64,000 bases of DNA from an uncultured Pseudomonadota bacterium (GCA_902763905.1 CACWUA010000001.1:66291-130290), one strand, 5' to 3'. Counted from the first letter of the stretch, positions 49,101-59,718 are shown. The notes: generated by a model from the sequence alone, not told the origin. Made by a program: numbers and translations.

Positions 49101-49808
49101 ATGATGGATAAATTAAAGAGGATAAGATATTTTGCTCTCTTAGCTGTTATGATGTTGTTCGGCGCGGGTATAACATGTGTTTATGCCGAAATGCCTACCG
49201 ATGATTCGTTGAAAAATTCCGAAAATAGCGAACAGGATAGTACGGAAAAGCACGACGAGAAAATAGAAGAAGATAAAAAAGAAGAACTTGATAAAGCACA
49301 AAAAGATCGCGGCTACGGTCCACTTAATTCGCTTGATTTATATATGAATGTAATCAATACGGTGGAAGGTGCCGTAACCGGCGATAGATTCGGCGAAAAT
49401 TTAGAAAAAATGCTCAAAAAATACGGTGCGGTTGTAGCCAGTGAACAAGCTATGCTGGCCGCCAAGAAAATGGAAAAATATGAACGGCAAAAAGCAGCGA
49501 GCAAACAGCTGCGCGAAGAAAAAGAAGCCAAAGATGAAGCGGTAAAAGATATAAAAAACGAGCGTCAGAAAAAGGATAAAAAAAGATCGTCATTGCTGAG
49601 TAAATCATATAATTGGTACAAAAACAATTCGCAAGCGCAGTCGACAGTTGAGGGAATTGTCAATTCGGTTGCAAACAATAATTATGAAGGAGCTGTCGAT
49701 CGTTTGGTTAATGATGCCGGCAGTGCGGCTATAGATGCGCAAGTTAAAAAATACGAGAATAACGAGGCGGCAAAGTCGGGTAACGCAGAAACCCCGACAA
49801 ATAAATAG
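49101..49808 (+). CDS. Secreted Lys/Glu-rich coiled-coil protein (T4SS-associated, unknown function) P1
   Basis: AGGAGG RBS. Signal peptide ...GITCVYA-EM. Shares GDRFGENLEK / NWYKNNSQAQS blocks with the next gene (WGRFGDDPFG / NWLKKNRSGVQ). Confidence 0.7.
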   Translation: MMDKLKRIRYFALLAVMMLFGAGITCVYAEMPTDDSLKNSENSEQDSTEKHDEKIEEDKKEELDKAQKDRGYGPLNSLDLYMNVINTVEGAVTGDRFGENLEKMLKKYGAVVASEQAMLAAKKMEKYERQKAASKQLREEKEAKDEAVKDIKNERQKKDKKRSSLLSKSYNWYKNNSQAQSTVEGIVNSVANNNYEGAVDRLVNDAGSAAIDAQVKKYENNEAAKSGNAETPTNK

Positions 49809-49828
49809 AATAACGGGAGACGGGACTG

Positions 49829-50617
49829 ATGATTGGAAAAACGCAAAAAATAATTCAAACGGTTGTCCTTGTTGTGGCGATAACTCTCTGTGCATGCAAT
49901 GCCAACGCACAGGGTATTCCGATATTTTTTAAAACATATATGGCCGACTATATGCGCTCATGGACTTTGAGTACCATTGAAAAAAATCAAAGTACAAAAG
50001 CACATAACAATCGCAAGCTGGTAGAAGAAAATGCCGAACGCGGCAACAGTCCGGAAGTGCGATCGACATATAATAAAATGCTTAATAAATTTGTAAATAA
50101 TATGAATTGGGGACGCTTCGGAGATGATCCGTTCGGAACGATATATGCTGCCGGTGAGAAAACTGTCGATACCCAATCACAAGAATTTATCGCCGAACAA
50201 AAACGCAAGGGCAGAGAGTATTTGCAAAAAAAACTCGATGAAGAGCTGAAAGAACAGCAAGAAGATAAAGCATGGGAAGAAGAGGATAAGGCCAATGCCG
50301 CCGGCGGCGGTTCTTCCGATACATTATCAGGAACGGCTTCCGGTTCAGGTACGGAGAATAATGTATCTTCACAACAAAACAACAGCGGAAAATATCAAAA
50401 ATACAAAGCACAGGTGTTTAATTGGCTCAAGAAAAATCGTTCAGGCGTGCAAAATGCCGCAAAAGCTGCGGTTTCCGGAGATGATGTCGGCGACAAAGTC
50501 GATAAGATGGCCACAGATACGATAGAAGATATTGCGGCATCAGGACAGCAAAAATTGAAGCAAAAATTGGAGCAGCAAAAGCAGCCTGCGGGAACTCAGA
50601 CACCTACGTATCAATAA
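49829..50617 (+). CDS. Secreted coiled-coil protein, distant paralog of P1 (P2)
   Basis: Signal peptide ...ITLCACNANA-QG, a Gly/Ser-rich middle, and shared blocks with P1. Confidence 0.7.
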   Translation: MIGKTQKIIQTVVLVVAITLCACNANAQGIPIFFKTYMADYMRSWTLSTIEKNQSTKAHNNRKLVEENAERGNSPEVRSTYNKMLNKFVNNMNWGRFGDDPFGTIYAAGEKTVDTQSQEFIAEQKRKGREYLQKKLDEELKEQQEDKAWEEEDKANAAGGGSSDTLSGTASGSGTENNVSSQQNNSGKYQKYKAQVFNWLKKNRSGVQNAAKAAVSGDDVGDKVDKMATDTIEDIAASGQQKLKQKLEQQKQPAGTQTPTYQ

Positions 50618-56815: not shown

Positions 56816-56838
56816 GCGATACGCAGGAAGAAAGTATT

Positions 56839-59718
56839 ATGCGCTGGGCTGTAGGGGCCGAGGTTATGAAAGATGTAGCCAGAGATTTGGATTTTGGTTT
56901 GGATAACAGTGGTACAGTTCATTTTGGTAAAAGAAAGCGTAAATTCCCGCTATGGAATGATCAGATAGCATTTTATGACCAATATATAAACGGCAAATAT
57001 GAAAACATGAAAGACTACATTATGACGGTTCCGACTCAAATGTTGTTATTGAATGCTGCTGTTGGGGTGGTCAGTGGGCTGTCGGGCAGTGGCAGTAGTA
57101 CCGGAAACGGACAAGACGGTGCTGCCGTATTGCAAGACTATTTCAAGAACGAAGAAGGCCAAATTAATCAGATGATTGAAAATTATGAGAAAATATTTAA
57201 ACAAATAAAGGCGCAATACGAGGCAAAAATCAAGAAAGATGAGACGGAAAGAGAAATACGTGTTGCTGAAAAAGACGAAGCAGGCCAGAAATTAAGTAAA
57301 TTAAATGCCAAATATAATCGAGCTAATCGCGATATTAATGAAGCTGTTTTAGAAATAGATGTTTCCCAAAAAGGGCTTGATTATAATGCAGATTTATACG
57401 ATAAAGCCAACAGAGATGATGTCGATATTGATGAAATGCCGCAAACGCAGGATTACAAGAATTTGCAAGAGAAAGCCGAAGCTAAGCAGGAGAAAGCAAA
57501 TTCTACCAAGGATGCAATTCTGTTAGAGACATCGGACATAGAAGAATATATAAAAGAAAGGGAAGAATGGATAGAGGAAATTGATGCCAGACTGGATCAG
57601 GCTCGGCGTGAATATGTTAAACAAATGAGTGATGCCGAAGCTCAGGAAATGCGGGAAACAGCAGCACTGATTGCTTCGATTCGTGCAGCTCGCCGAAGTT
57701 TTATTACTCCGGAAGAAGCCGTTACGAAAATTGTACCTGCTGAAATTGCCGCTACGGTAATAAGCTGCGCTCGTCAATATATTGTGGAACAAATTGAAAA
57801 AGCACAAGAAAAGATTAAGACCGAGTTACAAGATACCGGCAAGATATACATGCCGGGCAATTATGGCAAACTTAAAGCAATTCACGCTGATTTAATAAAT
57901 AAGATCAGCAGTGTGTCGCCGTCGGATATTGCATCTTGTGGGGAAACTACCGATAGTGAAGGCAATTCTTTCGTGTCATTGAACTTTCTTGCCGGTATTT
58001 GTGCCAATGATTTCTGCGTAAACGAAGATGACGCATTCTTTGTCGGTATTGTCGGATTACCGCACGACTTTGCGGCACCGCATTCACCGGATTGGTTTAC
58101 TTCTGCTCCTATGCGTGAGGTATTTTACTTTGATCATTACGATTTTTCTTCAATCTCAAAATATTATAAAGGAGATGAAGAGAGTATTAATGAAAATACC
58201 AAAATGTTTTTGAGTCAAAGACTGTTTTTGGAAGATCTCTTAAAAGGTGCTCCCAATACGCAGATAAAATCATCGGAAGACTACATAAGAGGCGAAGACA
58301 GTATTAAACAATCTACAGTGCCTGAAGTATGGAAATGGATATTGAAACCGCATACCTATGTGCAACGTTCGTTTGACTTGAAAAAACTTATCGGCAGGCA
58401 AAATGGTACTCCGGAAGAACAGATGCGCGCGCTAAGTGCAAGGCAATCGATTCGCCGTTCCGGTCTTTATCCGTGTCGTTCTCCCGAATACAATTCGGCA
58501 GGAAAGCTCAGCGGACGGACTCTTTATGACGAAAACGGTAAACCTACGGGAATACCTGCTCAGCAATTTATTGATGTTAACAGTGATTTACAGTATACAA
58601 CCGGTAAAATCGCTGATTTGCAGCAGCCGCAAAAGTCGGAGAACTTAAGCTCAACTAATCCGAATGAGCCGAAACAAACGTATATTCCGTCATTGGTTCC
58701 GCCTGATTGGATGGAATATTCTACTGTGCCGTATAATACTGCAACACCTATAACAGATGTTATTATGGGGGTTCCGGAGTGTCAGGCTTTGCGCCATGTC
58801 AACGAGAGAGTGTTTGATAAAGAAACTTCTGCTTTGCACGGAAAACATGCTTCAGACTGGGTTAGTCCGCGTAAAGCCAGTGAACTCGGTAATATTCTGA
58901 CATATTATACGGAGACAAAGTATGAAGTTAATAAAAGTCTTTGCAACGCGGCAAAAACAAGCTGCGGCGGCAATCTGTCATGTGAAGAAAAGGCCTGTAA
59001 ACCGCAGAAAATTGAAATTTTACGACTGACCTATAATAATGAATTGGTACATGCCCTGTCTGCATATGATGAAGATTACGGCCAAAAAGGAAATGAAGAA
59101 GGTACTTCACGGCAAAATTTAGCCTCGCGCGTGTTATTACAAAATAATCAGTTGGGAGATTATTTAAACCAAATAGAAACTATGAGGGTTACAGCCGATA
59201 ATCTTCTTAATTCTGAAAAAGATCTTAAGCGCACTCAATTGGAACTTGCGGAAACTCTGATAGAGACAGATTTTGTGTTCGGTGAAGAATTTGATTTGGC
59301 TAATGAACAAGATTATAAACGGCTTCGTGATAAATTGACTGAGGAAAAAGAAAAAGCCGTTACTGCAGCATTGAATAAACTAAGTGAAGTCAAAATGACT
59401 ACGACCATTGAGAATCCTGACGGTACTTTTAGTGACGGCGATGAAGTTGAGGCTATCAAAGAACGTGTGGCCGATATTACCAGACGTGCTTTATTATACC
59501 AGATGGATAGTGAGGGAAGTGAGTTGATTCCGGATTATCCCGGTGATTTGGTTACAATTGACGGTTCTTGGGATCCGCAAACCGATATGCTCGAGGAAAT
59601 GCAAACGGCAAAAGCCGATTGGGATATAGCTCAAGAGACCGCTAAAAGGCAAGATGAAGAACGTGAACGTCGCTTACAACAGTTTGCACGTCCGTATTGC
59701 GCGGTATATCCTCATTAA
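56839..59718 (+). CDS. Very large protein (about 960 aa), unknown function (P7)
   Basis: ORF open from 56812 (TTG). ATG 56839 has a purine-rich RBS. One weakly hydrophobic segment (TQMLLLNAAVGVVSGLSG), then LQDYFKNEEGQINQ and long coiled coils. No polytopic membrane domain. Confidence 0.65.
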   Translation: MRWAVGAEVMKDVARDLDFGLDNSGTVHFGKRKRKFPLWNDQIAFYDQYINGKYENMKDYIMTVPTQMLLLNAAVGVVSGLSGSGSSTGNGQDGAAVLQDYFKNEEGQINQMIENYEKIFKQIKAQYEAKIKKDETEREIRVAEKDEAGQKLSKLNAKYNRANRDINEAVLEIDVSQKGLDYNADLYDKANRDDVDIDEMPQTQDYKNLQEKAEAKQEKANSTKDAILLETSDIEEYIKEREEWIEEIDARLDQARREYVKQMSDAEAQEMRETAALIASIRAARRSFITPEEAVTKIVPAEIAATVISCARQYIVEQIEKAQEKIKTELQDTGKIYMPGNYGKLKAIHADLINKISSVSPSDIASCGETTDSEGNSFVSLNFLAGICANDFCVNEDDAFFVGIVGLPHDFAAPHSPDWFTSAPMREVFYFDHYDFSSISKYYKGDEESINENTKMFLSQRLFLEDLLKGAPNTQIKSSEDYIRGEDSIKQSTVPEVWKWILKPHTYVQRSFDLKKLIGRQNGTPEEQMRALSARQSIRRSGLYPCRSPEYNSAGKLSGRTLYDENGKPTGIPAQQFIDVNSDLQYTTGKIADLQQPQKSENLSSTNPNEPKQTYIPSLVPPDWMEYSTVPYNTATPITDVIMGVPECQALRHVNERVFDKETSALHGKHASDWVSPRKASELGNILTYYTETKYEVNKSLCNAAKTSCGGNLSCEEKACKPQKIEILRLTYNNELVHALSAYDEDYGQKGNEEGTSRQNLASRVLLQNNQLGDYLNQIETMRVTADNLLNSEKDLKRTQLELAETLIETDFVFGEEFDLANEQDYKRLRDKLTEEKEKAVTAALNKLSEVKMTTTIENPDGTFSDGDEVEAIKERVADITRRALLYQMDSEGSELIPDYPGDLVTIDGSWDPQTDMLEEMQTAKADWDIAQETAKRQDEERERRLQQFARPYCAVYPH

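What the first reader, a model, noticed from the sequence alone, without database searches (positions are those of the whole stretch)
49101..59718. Seven-gene block (about 10.6 kb) of uncharacterised, mostly signal-peptide-bearing coiled-coil proteins that look like a diverged paralog series
P1 to P6 all start with clear Sec signal peptides. P7 has only one weakly hydrophobic segment.

P1 and P2 share short collinear blocks: GDRFGENLEK/WGRFGDDPFG and NWYKNNSQAQS/NWLKKNRSGVQ.

P3 to P7 each contain a similar N-proximal motif of the form hydrophobic-K/D-Y/L-F/V followed by an acidic/Asn patch:
- IKKYVKAMNNDNS
- MSYFKKKHVDNDV
- ISKLFLHEDETDN
- FIKLFFQYPSENS
- LQDYFKNEEGQIN

In P3 to P6 an amphipathic helix follows 100-200 residues later:
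- LRELYAENLKYMAIDAI
- WLNILLFESSHISNI
- YLEIMLAMMQLQTTSEMI
- YNEFLVAMLAQYRSVNSI

Sizes escalate along the series (235, 262, 518, 381, 434, 717 and about 960 aa). I recognise no known domain. Serial duplication of surface-exposed T4SS parts is known from Bartonella Trw (trwL, trwJ-I-H) and Rickettsiales (virB2, virB6). This could be an analogous but sequence-novel expansion of pilus-tip/VirB5-like proteins, pilus-associated adhesins, or cis-encoded effectors.
Basis: partly seen in the sequence, partly recalled or inferred. Interest (0 to 1): 0.8.

Follow-up and report, generated by a model that had tools for sequence, protein, structure and literature searches.

The report
Secreted accessory proteins of a T4SS
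The block is a conserved set of five new families of exported proteins (six genes here, not seven) that always sits inside a type IV secretion system of uncultured gut Alphaproteobacteria, probably forming its exposed, fast-evolving outer part, and only some of the genes are true duplicates of one another.

Summary
The ORFs are real and under purifying selection (dN/dS about 0.1), but the "seven-gene paralog series" is only partly right.

In 56 related loci from gut and rumen Alphaproteobacteria, the stretch between virB4 and virB8 holds five families in fixed order, F1 to F5.
- P1 and P2 are tandem duplicates of F1.
- P3 is F2, P4 is F3 and P5 is F4.
- P6 and P7 are two halves of one F5 gene. 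It is 1,706 aa in three assemblies that are 100% identical to the window. The split is a 67-nt gap found only in the window contig. That contig also has a 71-nt gap in virB4 and a frameshift in virB9, two of the three sitting where other assemblies' contigs end.

None of the families matches Pfam, NCBIfam or PDB. AlphaFold models of P6 and P7 show long coiled coils plus globular parts, with no significant fold match.

Profile comparisons clearly link only F1 with the F3 C-terminus. They align, weakly but always in the same register, with each other and with true VirB5 proteins of the nearest conjugative T4SSs.

The block diverges far faster than the core genes and is mosaic between strains.

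Best reading: Sec-exported structural subunits of the distal T4SS, partly VirB5-derived. The function is inferred, not shown.

The parts
49101..49808 (+). P1 = F1a, 235 aa. Sec signal peptide. Diverged tandem copy of family F1.
   Evidence: ORF. (signal peptide). P1 group versus canonical F1, hhalign prob 97.7%, P=2e-12; dN/dS 0.13.
49829..50617 (+). P2 = F1b, 262 aa. Signal peptide, then a mature N-terminus 'QGIPIFF' of VirB5/TrbJ type. Second tandem copy of F1.
   Evidence: P2 group versus canonical F1, P=2.6e-9; P1 versus P2 groups, P=3e-5. The duplication is also seen in L014, L015, L016, L018 and L007.
50646..52202 (+). P3 = F2, 518 aa. Signal peptide, a low-complexity linker, a conserved ~150-aa core (residues ~93-243, two conserved Cys), and a variable Cys-rich C-terminal part.
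   Evidence: The core domain is duplicated in tandem in L003/L004. The gene is duplicated in L010, L018, L022 and L072.
52233..53378 (+). P4 = F3, 381 aa. Signal peptide, and a mature N-terminus 'ELDFIKDF' (family consensus ADLDxxSxIQD). The C-terminal 'G(D/N)Y..A' module is shared with F1.
   Evidence: F1 C-terminus versus F3 C-terminus, P=1.2e-6, prob 91% (alignment shown). The gene call of 381 aa agrees with L085.
53344..54648 (+). P5 = F4, 434 aa. Signal peptide, N-terminal helix, central coiled coil, and a conserved C-terminal domain ending in 'FNLDDY'. Present in 56 of 56 loci.
   Evidence: the C-domain versus VirB5-like g1 of conjugative relatives gives P=2.2e-4 (prob 45%).
54662..59718 (+). 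F5, one gene of 1,706 aa. In the window it reads as P6 (54662-56815) plus P7 (56812-59718) because 67 nt are missing at ~56791-56794. It has a signal peptide, a helical N-terminal region, a ~100-residue antiparallel coiled-coil hairpin, alpha/beta globular parts, and a conserved C-terminal 'PYCAxY'.
   Evidence: single gene. (models; P7 pLDDT 84, pTM 0.78). (no PDB fold match). (151 representatives in 1.84 billion).
44704..46664 (+). Context: three VirB2/TrbC pilin paralogs (44704-45914), a secreted 147-aa protein X (45934-46377) and VirB3 (46374-46664).
46661..49019 (+). Context: virB4. It reads as two ORFs because 71 nt are missing at 47574/47575. It is intact (809 aa) in identical assemblies.
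59742..63288 (+). Context: VirB8a (59742-60494), a VirB7-like lipoprotein (60641-60829), VirB8b (60845-61597), and VirB9/CagX with a SPOR domain (61613-63288, frameshift at ~61889-61891).

Best explanation
**What the block is.** It encodes five T4SS-specific families of Sec-exported, largely helical proteins, F1 to F5. Here F1 is duplicated and F5 is artefactually split. I read them as structural subunits of the periplasmic-to-extracellular, distal part of this secretion machine: the stalk, the pilus tip or an adhesin complex. That is the role VirB5 plays in canonical systems.

**Proposed sequence of events.**
1. Each protein crosses the inner membrane by Sec and loses its signal peptide.
2. 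The newly exposed N-terminal helix docks the subunit onto the VirB2 pilus or stalk base. These helices read F1 'FPLPTxD', F3 'ADLDxxS', F4 'KLDF' and F5 'FPDFTPL'.
3. The 1,706-aa F5, with its ~14-nm coiled-coil hairpin and globular head, is the exposed contact element.
4. Exposure would explain the fast divergence and the recombination between strains.

**What is shown.**
- Fixed membership and order inside the T4SS operon.
- Export signals.
- Purifying selection together with accelerated, mosaic divergence.
- P1/P2 paralogy.
- A module shared by F1 and F3.
- F5 being a single gene.
- The coiled-coil architecture.

**What is inferred.** Location at the tip or stalk, descent from VirB5, the docking mechanism and an adhesive role.
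For: **Synteny**
- F4 is present in 56/56 loci, F2 in 53, F3 in 52 and F5 in 48, plus 8 loci with no complete F5 ORF listed, where it may run off the locus end. F1 is recognised in only 22 of 56.
- The families present are in collinear order in 56/56 loci between virB4 and virB8.
- The T4SS type occurs in 225 species-level genomes, by record title nearly all uncultured Alphaproteobacteria or unclassified proteobacteria from gut and rumen.

**Export**
- Every family has an N-terminal signal peptide and no other transmembrane segment.

**Real genes**
- dN/dS is 0.09-0.31 against the 92-95% identical relative L014.

**Fast, mosaic evolution**
- Against L015, VirB4 is 90-98% and VirB3 84% identical, while block proteins are 34-56% identical.
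- Nucleotide identity to L014 falls to 81-88% over 52000-55500 and jumps back to 99% at 55500.
- dS is about 0.6 for P4 and P5, against about 0.1 for virB4.

**VirB5 link**
- In the closest conjugative T4SSs (VirB4 30-38% identical) the same slot holds g1, a true VirB5. Er_g1 passes Pfam PF07996 at E=6.8e-7.
- That slot also holds a ~430-aa paralog g2 (P=2.7e-9).
- g1 aligns with the F1 N-terminus (P=1.5e-3) and the F4 C-domain (P=2.2e-4).
- The merged g1+g2 profile aligns with the F2 core (P=5e-3) and the F5n core (P=0.12).
- All these alignments fall on the same g1 region. Reversed controls give 0.08-0.6.

**Architecture**
- P7 model: pLDDT 84, with helices 101-198 and 210-298 forming a long hairpin.

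**No VirB5, VirB6 or VirD4 recognised**
- No Pfam-recognisable VirB5 is found in the operon.
- No VirB6 or VirD4 lies in the stretch read from virB2 to virB11.
- From memory, this resembles the adhesion-specialised Bartonella Trw system.
Against: - No member of F1, F3 or F4 reaches even E=0.01 to Pfam VirB5.
- The F1 profile hits TrwJ only at E=1.3-1.4.
- The P6 model has no VirB5-like fold match.
- Links between the families and VirB5 are individually non-significant (best P=2e-4, prob 45%).
- Nothing here shows where the proteins sit. Fast divergence is also typical of coiled-coil or low-complexity proteins under weak constraint.
- Absence of VirB6 and VirD4 was only checked within the operon, not genome-wide.
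- The organisms are uncultured and there is no expression or localisation data.
Confidence: 0.5

Rival explanations
1. The proteins are periplasmic or outer-membrane core-complex accessory subunits of an 'expanded' T4SS. They would be analogous to Cag3/CagM/CagT of Helicobacter or DotC/D/H/K of Legionella. On this reading they are scaffolds, not surface-exposed and not VirB5-derived.
For: - The system has other signs of expansion: a 562-aa VirB9 with a SPOR domain, a 1,385-aa VirB10 and a 1,413-aa bitopic protein, the latter two full of beta-flower repeats.
- The block proteins carry signal peptides and co-occur strictly with the machine.
- Long coiled coils could be struts.
Against: - The strain-level mosaic and the 5-fold higher dS centred on P4 to P6 fit exposed, diversifying parts better than buried scaffolds.
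- F1 occupies the VirB5 slot and has a VirB5-type N-terminus.
- There is no similarity to any Cag or Dot component in Pfam or PDB.
Confidence: 0.25
2. The proteins are Sec-dependent substrates of the T4SS. They would form a multi-subunit toxin or effector complex assembled in the periplasm and pushed out by the machine. The model is pertussis toxin S1-S5, which is encoded next to the ptl genes.
For: - Five co-encoded proteins with signal peptides lie inside a T4SS operon.
- No virD4 follows virB11 in the operon.
- Ptl likewise lacks VirD4 and VirB5, and the toxin has been proposed as a VirB5 analogue (review PMC12857230).
- The best, though non-significant, fold hits of P6 and P7 include alpha-pore-forming toxins AhlB, SmhB, MakA and XaxA.
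Against: - There are no toxin or enzyme domains.
- The block is invariant in composition and order across a deep clade (VirB4 down to 75% identity), whereas effector sets usually vary.
- The genes lie between virB4 and virB8, not upstream as ptx does.
- The fold hits have E>=0.04 and are explained by generic coiled coils.
- Absence of VirD4 was not tested genome-wide.
Confidence: 0.15
3. The similarities and the 'block' are chance. On this reading the genes are unrelated low-complexity coiled-coil ORFs with no common role.
For: - Pairwise BLASTP among P1 to P7 is non-significant.
- Most profile-profile comparisons are no better than 1e-3.
Against: - Every ORF has orthologs in the same position in dozens of genomes.
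- dN/dS is about 0.1.
- P1, P2 and F1 are related at P=2e-12 and 2.6e-9, and F1 and F3 at P=1.2e-6.
Confidence: 0.02

Closest known systems
VirB5 / TrbJ minor pilin family (Pfam PF07996; TraC of pKM101, TrwJ of R388)
   Same: - Sec-exported, helical and encoded directly after virB4.
- F1 (P1, P2) is of VirB5 size (235-262 aa).
- Its mature N-terminus has the same type as the [Q/G]-IP-V-x-D start of the VirB5 proteins of Erythrobacter, Sphingosinicella and Microvirga plasmids.
- Weak, register-consistent profile alignments link it to F1, F2, F4 and F5n.
   Different: - No family member reaches a Pfam or NCBIfam threshold.
- There are five families instead of one, ranging up to 1,706 aa.
- The fold match was not demonstrated.
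Bartonella Trw T4SS (amplified trwL and trwJ-I-H; no coupling protein). Recalled from memory.
   Same: - Multiple VirB2 paralogs.
- Tandem duplication of the first post-virB4 gene (P1/P2).
- No virD4 in the operon.
- Rapidly diversifying, presumably exposed components.
   Different: - Trw repeats a virB5-virB6-virB7 unit.
- Here most of the block consists of distinct, single-copy families.
- No VirB6 is present in the block.
- There is no sequence similarity.
Conjugative T4SSs of Microvirga pMVF16-3, Erythrobacter aureus, Sphingosinicella and Ca. Paracaedimonas plasmids (closest VirB4, 30-38% identity)
   Same: - Same gene order: virB2-virB3-virB4-[exported proteins]-virB7-virB8-virB9-virB10-virB11.
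- A similar VirB7 lipoprotein ('SPCAC.Q' motif).
- A VirB5 plus a longer VirB5 paralog in the slot.
   Different: - Those systems have a relaxase and VirD4, and only 2-3 genes in the slot. These include a polytopic VirB6-like protein in Microvirga and Paracaedimonas.
- The gut system has 5 exported families, two VirB8 copies, a giant VirB10 with beta-flower repeats, and no relaxase or VirD4 in view.
Type IV pilus tip complexes (minor pilins plus the large adhesin PilY1/PilC). Functional analogy only.
   Same: Several small subunits that may share an N-terminal assembly helix, plus one very large exposed protein, all encoded together.
   Different: An unrelated machinery with no homology. The analogy is an inference.

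Membership tests
VirB5/TrbJ (PF07996) | Significant match to the family profile | tested here: not met
   - P1 to P7 have no hit.
- 43 F1 members and 76 F3/F4 members, scanned one by one, show no VirB5 family at E<=0.1 or 0.01.
- Positive control: Er_g1 passes at E=6.8e-7.
VirB5/TrbJ (PF07996) | Sec signal peptide, ~220-270 aa, gene immediately downstream of virB4 | tested here: met
   F1: P1 is 235 aa and P2 is 262 aa, and they are the first genes after virB4. This is not met for F2 to F5 by size or position.
VirB5/TrbJ (PF07996) | Remote homology to bona fide VirB5 by profile-profile comparison | tested here: inconclusive
   - g1 profile versus F1 N-terminus: P=1.5e-3.
- g1 profile versus F4 C-domain: P=2.2e-4 (prob 45%).
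- Merged g1+g2 profile versus F2: P=5e-3.
- Merged g1+g2 profile versus F5n: P=0.12.
- Merged g1+g2 profile versus F3: P=0.47.
- Reversed controls: 0.08-0.6.
- TrwJ in PDB: E=1.3-1.4.
VirB5/TrbJ (PF07996) | Three-helix bundle with a globular appendage fold | tested here: inconclusive
   - Only P6 and P7 could be modelled.
- P6 (pLDDT 68) gives no VirB5, TraC, TrwJ or CagL hit.
- F1 to F4 were not modelled: the two job slots went to P6 and P7, the only family with a deep admissible alignment.
VirB6/TrbL | Polytopic protein with 4-6 hydrophobic helices | tested here: not met
   A Kyte-Doolittle scan finds only the signal peptide in every block protein of the five loci scanned, the window and L001-L004. 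Control: Paracaedimonas g2 shows 6 segments.
Trw-like serial amplification | Tandem arrays of mutually homologous copies | tested here: inconclusive
   - Met for P1/P2 and for virB2 x3.
- Not met for P3 to P7, which are separate orthologous families.
Pertussis-toxin-like Sec-dependent T4SS substrate | Signal peptides plus a T4SS lacking VirD4 | tested here: inconclusive
   Signal peptides are present. No virD4 lies in the operon up to virB11. Whole genomes were not searched.
Pertussis-toxin-like Sec-dependent T4SS substrate | Toxin or enzymatic domains (ADP-ribosyltransferase, AB5 B-subunits) | tested here: not met
   No such Pfam or NCBIfam hit and no fold hit.
Cag pilus-associated proteins CagL/CagI/CagH | Sequence or fold similarity | tested here: not met
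   No PDB sequence hit and no fold hit.

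The most novel reading that the evidence does not exclude
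This may be a T4SS lineage, widespread in commensal gut Alphaproteobacteria, that has no classical VirB6.

In it, VirB5 would have radiated into five exported families that together build a modular, recombining stalk and tip complex. That complex would be crowned by a 1,706-aa coiled-coil giant. It would be a T4SS counterpart of the minor-pilin/PilY1 tip of type IV pili, used for contact with host or neighbouring cells.
Probability: 0.15. Interest if true: 0.8.

Novelty: new variant of a known kind. Interest (0 to 1): 0.5.

Why it matters
**Reach.** The same machine, with this block, is chromosomally conserved in at least 225 species-level genomes of uncultured gut and rumen Alphaproteobacteria. 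The hosts include human, ruminants, chicken, horse and rabbit. None of its five exported families has a name, a domain or a solved relative.

**If they form the exposed end.** They would then be the determinants of what these common but unstudied commensals touch. They would also show how VirB5 can diversify into a multi-subunit tip, and how a T4SS can work without a recognisable VirB6 in its operon.

**Practical points.**
- The analysis supplies family definitions that would allow annotation.
- It flags that this contig carries three local assembly defects that create false gene splits.

Tried and rejected
1. **Sequence-level paralogy among P1 to P7.** BLASTP all-vs-all gave nothing below E=0.09.
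2. **Iterated HMM searches.** They merged families (F1/F3 and F2/F4 overlaps). I treated this as possible drift from signal peptides and coiled coils. I re-did the comparisons on signal-peptide-stripped, synteny-defined families with reversed-sequence controls. Only F1-F3 survived.
3. **Shared N-terminal helix after the signal peptide.** P-values were 2e-4 to 0.03 against controls of 0.03-0.8. I kept this as a hint only.
4. **Pseudogenisation of the T4SS.** Three disrupted genes suggested decay. I rejected this because 100%-identical assemblies have intact virB4 and F5, and the F5 and virB9 breakpoints coincide with contig ends elsewhere.
5. **Positive selection.** Gene-wide dN/dS is 0.09-0.31, so there is no gene-wide signal. 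Site-level tests were not done.
6. **Word-indexed homolog searches.** They returned only 6, 4 and 19 proteins, probably because low-complexity words saturated the candidate list. The concatenated-core query helped only for F2 and F3.
8. **Agrobacterium VirB5 against PDB.** No hit, so no broad VirB5 profile could be built that way.
9. **Fetching R388.** The record BR000038 is not in the plasmid collection.
10. **Foldseek on the P6 and P7 models.** Only generic helical or coiled-coil matches came back.
11. **Literature searches.** Searches for this T4SS in gut Alphaproteobacteria found nothing.

Full report
**Setting**

The window is a chromosomal stretch of an alphaproteobacterium. AddA of the alphaproteobacterial type, UvrA, MurJ and MsbA are all present. 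From 44.7 kb onward the + strand carries a diverged virB-type T4SS, in this order:
- three VirB2/TrbC paralogs;
- a secreted 147-aa protein;
- VirB3 and VirB4;
- the block in question;
- VirB8, a VirB7-like lipoprotein and a second VirB8;
- VirB9/CagX with a SPOR domain.

In relatives the operon continues with a 1,413-aa bitopic protein, a 1,385-aa VirB10 and VirB11. Both large proteins are rich in beta-flower repeats. An autotransporter gene follows. No virB6 or virD4 is seen in the stretch from virB2 to virB11.

**Checking the observation**

P1 to P6 each have an N-terminal charged segment, a hydrophobic core and an AxA-type site. They have no other hydrophobic segment. Across orthologs, the conserved mature sequence of each family starts right behind that site.

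None of P1 to P7 matches Pfam or NCBIfam. All-vs-all BLASTP among them gives nothing better than E=0.09.

**What relatives show**

P7 has only six detectable homologs in the word-indexed database. Their contigs show the same layout: virB2 copies, X, virB3, virB4, four or five unknown genes, a P7-like giant, then virB8.

VirB4 is far better conserved. A scan of one genome per species found 225 genomes with this VirB4. By record title nearly all are uncultured Alphaproteobacteria, or proteobacteria not classified further, from rumen, human, chicken, horse or rabbit gut. A few bins carry Firmicutes or Bacteroidaceae names. 80 loci were fetched.

Mapping the block proteins onto these loci shows five families in fixed order, F1-F2-F3-F4-F5. 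Among 56 loci with 10 kb of downstream sequence:

| Family | Loci with the family |
|---|---|
| F4 | 56 |
| F2 | 53 |
| F3 | 52 |
| F5 | 48 |
| F1 | 22 |

In 8 further loci no complete F5 ORF is listed; it may run off the locus end. F1 is recognised only in the nearer clade. The order is collinear in all 56.

The window's genes map as follows:
- P3 is F2.
- P4 is F3.
- P5 is F4.
- P6 plus P7 is F5.
- P1 and P2 are both F1.

**P1 and P2**

Its consensus is 'AFPLPTxDxxR...IQNGGYAAAA..LF.KI.NGDYDRFG...YNW.K'. Profile comparison gives these results, with reversed controls at 0.003-0.11:

| Comparison | P |
|---|---|
| P1 group versus canonical F1 | 2e-12 |
| P2 group versus canonical F1 | 2.6e-9 |
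| P1 group versus P2 group | 3e-5 |

P1 and P2 are therefore a lineage-specific tandem duplication. It is also present in L014, L015, L016 and L018, and L007 has an independent one.

**P6 and P7 are one gene**

In L002, L003 and L004 a single protein of 1,382-1,550 aa covers both. The 92-95% identical relative L014 reads straight through the junction.

Three assemblies found through the exact P5 sequence are 100.000% identical to the window over 43415-61888, apart from two gaps. The window lacks 71 nt inside virB4 and 67 nt inside F5. In those assemblies VirB4 is 809 aa and F5 is one gene of 1,706 aa.

One of those contigs ends exactly at the F5 gap. Two end exactly at the virB9 frameshift. 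The broken VirB4 and VirB9 fragments occur on a single contig in the whole collection.

I conclude that the three 'disruptions' are joins or assembly defects of the window contig. The block has six genes: 235, 262, 518, 381, 434 and 1,706 aa. P7's missing signal peptide and the 'escalating sizes' follow from this.

Genuine, independent splits of F5 near residue 230-350 do occur in L001, L060, L075, L079 and L084. In L001 the downstream part has its own signal peptide.

**Are the families related to each other?**

I stripped the signal peptides and used reversed profiles as controls.
- **Solid link.** The only clear link is between the C-terminal module of F1 and the C-terminus of F3. P=1.2e-6, prob 91%, with a second register at 1.1e-5; the control gives 0.07.
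- **N-termini.** The first ~60 mature residues of F1, F3, F4 and F5 resemble each other weakly. P=2e-4 to 0.03, against controls of 0.03-0.8.
It falls in the most conserved core of F2, F3, F4 and F5n. Spacing is 85, 88 and 87 residues in P3, P4 and P5.
- **Alignment register.** F2-F3 gives P=0.008 over 138 columns, F2-F4 gives 0.015, F4-F5 gives 0.015 and F2-F5 gives 0.07. Controls give 0.1-0.6. F3-F4 and F3-F5 are not better than control.

This is suggestive of a very old common domain. It is not proof.

**Link to VirB5**

The nearest T4SSs in annotated records are conjugative systems of Microvirga, Erythrobacter, Sphingosinicella and Ca. Paracaedimonas plasmids. Their VirB4 is 30-38% identical.

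Between virB4 and virB8 they carry two kinds of gene:
- g1 is about 250 aa, with a mature N-terminus such as 'GIPVIDPTAIARI'.
- g2 (g3 in Microvirga) is a ~430-aa protein; a signal peptide is seen only in the Microvirga copy.

Er_g1 passes the Pfam gathering threshold of PF07996, the VirB5 family, at E=6.8e-7. g1 and g2 are paralogs (P=2.7e-9). This T4SS lineage therefore already duplicates VirB5.

The g1 profile aligns as follows:
- with the F1 N-terminus at P=1.5e-3;

The merged g1+g2 profile aligns as follows:
- with the F2 core at 5e-3;
- with F4 at 0.008-0.015;
- with F5n at 0.12.

All of these land on the same g1 columns, ~97-194. Controls give 0.08-0.6.

Against this:
- No F1, F3 or F4 member hits any VirB5 model.
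- F1 reaches TrwJ only at E=1.3-1.4.
- The P6 model finds no VirB5 structure.

**Structures**

The exhaustive search with P7 found only 151 representatives among 1.84 billion, all of F5 size. With 52 of them as the alignment, two models were made.

| Model | pLDDT | pTM | Features |
|---|---|---|---|
| P6 | 68 | 0.40 | Long helices and a small beta domain at 495-546 |
| P7 | 84 | 0.78 | Helices 101-198 and 210-298 forming a long antiparallel hairpin, plus alpha/beta parts |

Foldseek against the PDB gives only generic coiled coils at E>=0.04. The hits include SMC, dynein stalk, chemoreceptors and ClyA-type toxins. The F4 profile hits coiled coils only through its middle third.

**Evolutionary behaviour**

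Against L015:
- VirB4 is 90-98% identical and VirB3 is 84% identical.
- The VirB2 copies are 54-74% identical.
- Block proteins are 34-56% identical.

Against L001, P1 and P2 are no longer detectable, while VirB7 stays at 87%.

Against L014, dN/dS is 0.02-0.23 for core genes and 0.09-0.31 for block genes. dS is about 0.6 for P4 and P5, against about 0.1 for virB4. Nucleotide identity drops to 81-88% over 52000-55500 and returns abruptly to 99%.

The genes are thus functional. Their alleles appear to be exchanged between strains, as is usual for exposed structures.

**Interpretation**

*Shown.* This is a fixed, T4SS-embedded module of five exported, helical, clade-restricted families. It includes one local duplication and one artefactual split.

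*Inferred.* The proteins are structural parts of the distal machine (stalk, pilus tip or adhesin), partly descended from VirB5. F5 would be the exposed contact element.

*Rivals.*
- Buried core-complex scaffolds of an expanded T4SS.
- A Sec-dependent multi-subunit substrate in the manner of pertussis toxin. The review PMC12857230 notes that Ptl lacks VirB5 and VirD4 and that the toxin may mimic VirB5.

**Novelty**

No paper in the library describes this system. I rate it a new variant of a known kind. The T4SS is recognisable, while its post-virB4 module consists of undescribed families.

Noticed in passing
window 47574/47575, ~56791-56794 and ~61889-61891: There are three local defects in this contig: 71 nt missing in virB4, 67 nt missing in F5, and a frameshift in virB9. 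Assemblies that are 100% identical elsewhere have intact virB4 and F5, and the F5 and virB9 defects coincide with contig ends in those assemblies. They are probably mis-joins, and they create false gene splits.
   Followed up: yes
window 33811-44315 (- strand): A type IVb pilus cluster lies divergently next to the T4SS. It includes a PilN-type secretin (40286-41923), a lipoprotein, a GspE/PilB-type ATPase (35502-37256) and a platform protein. The secretin and its neighbours sit next to virB4 in 47-48 of 56 related loci, so this is a conserved pilus-plus-T4SS super-locus. From memory, it recalls IncI plasmids.
   Followed up: partly
window 52000-55500 versus L014: Nucleotide identity to the closest relative falls from 94-99% to 81-88% across P4, P5 and the start of F5. 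It returns to 99% at 55500. This is a recombination mosaic centred on the block.
   Followed up: partly
L001 16776-23273; L002 18188-24653; L088 11690-20091 (downstream of the window end): After virB9 come two giant proteins. One is a bitopic protein of ~1,410-1,530 aa with beta-flower (PF21785/PF21784), DUF3659 and RHS repeats. The other is a ~1,390-aa VirB10 whose TrbI domain is preceded by beta-flower repeats. virB11 is followed by an autotransporter gene. No virD4 or virB6 lies in the operon.
   Followed up: partly
window 45934-46377: A secreted 147-aa protein lies between the third virB2 paralog and virB3. It is conserved in relatives (32% identity in L001) and matches no known family.
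   Followed up: no
L001, L060, L075, L079, L084: F5 is genuinely split into an N-terminal ~220-350-aa protein and a ~1,100-1,260-aa remainder in several lineages. In L001 the remainder has gained its own signal peptide. This suggests a separable N-terminal domain.
   Followed up: partly
L041-L072 and others (distant clade), first gene after virB4: In the more distant clade no separate F1 is recognised. The first gene carries a 'QWPTLD' VirB5-type N-terminus joined to the F2 core domain, which reads as a possible F1/F2 fusion or the ancestral state.
   Followed up: no
window 60641-60829; L091 21382-21558; L092 12917-13123: The small lipoprotein between the two virB8 copies shares a 'G.G...N.LK.SPCAC.Q' motif with the lipoprotein that precedes virB8 in the Microvirga and Erythrobacter conjugative systems. 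It is likely the VirB7 of this T4SS lineage.
   Followed up: no
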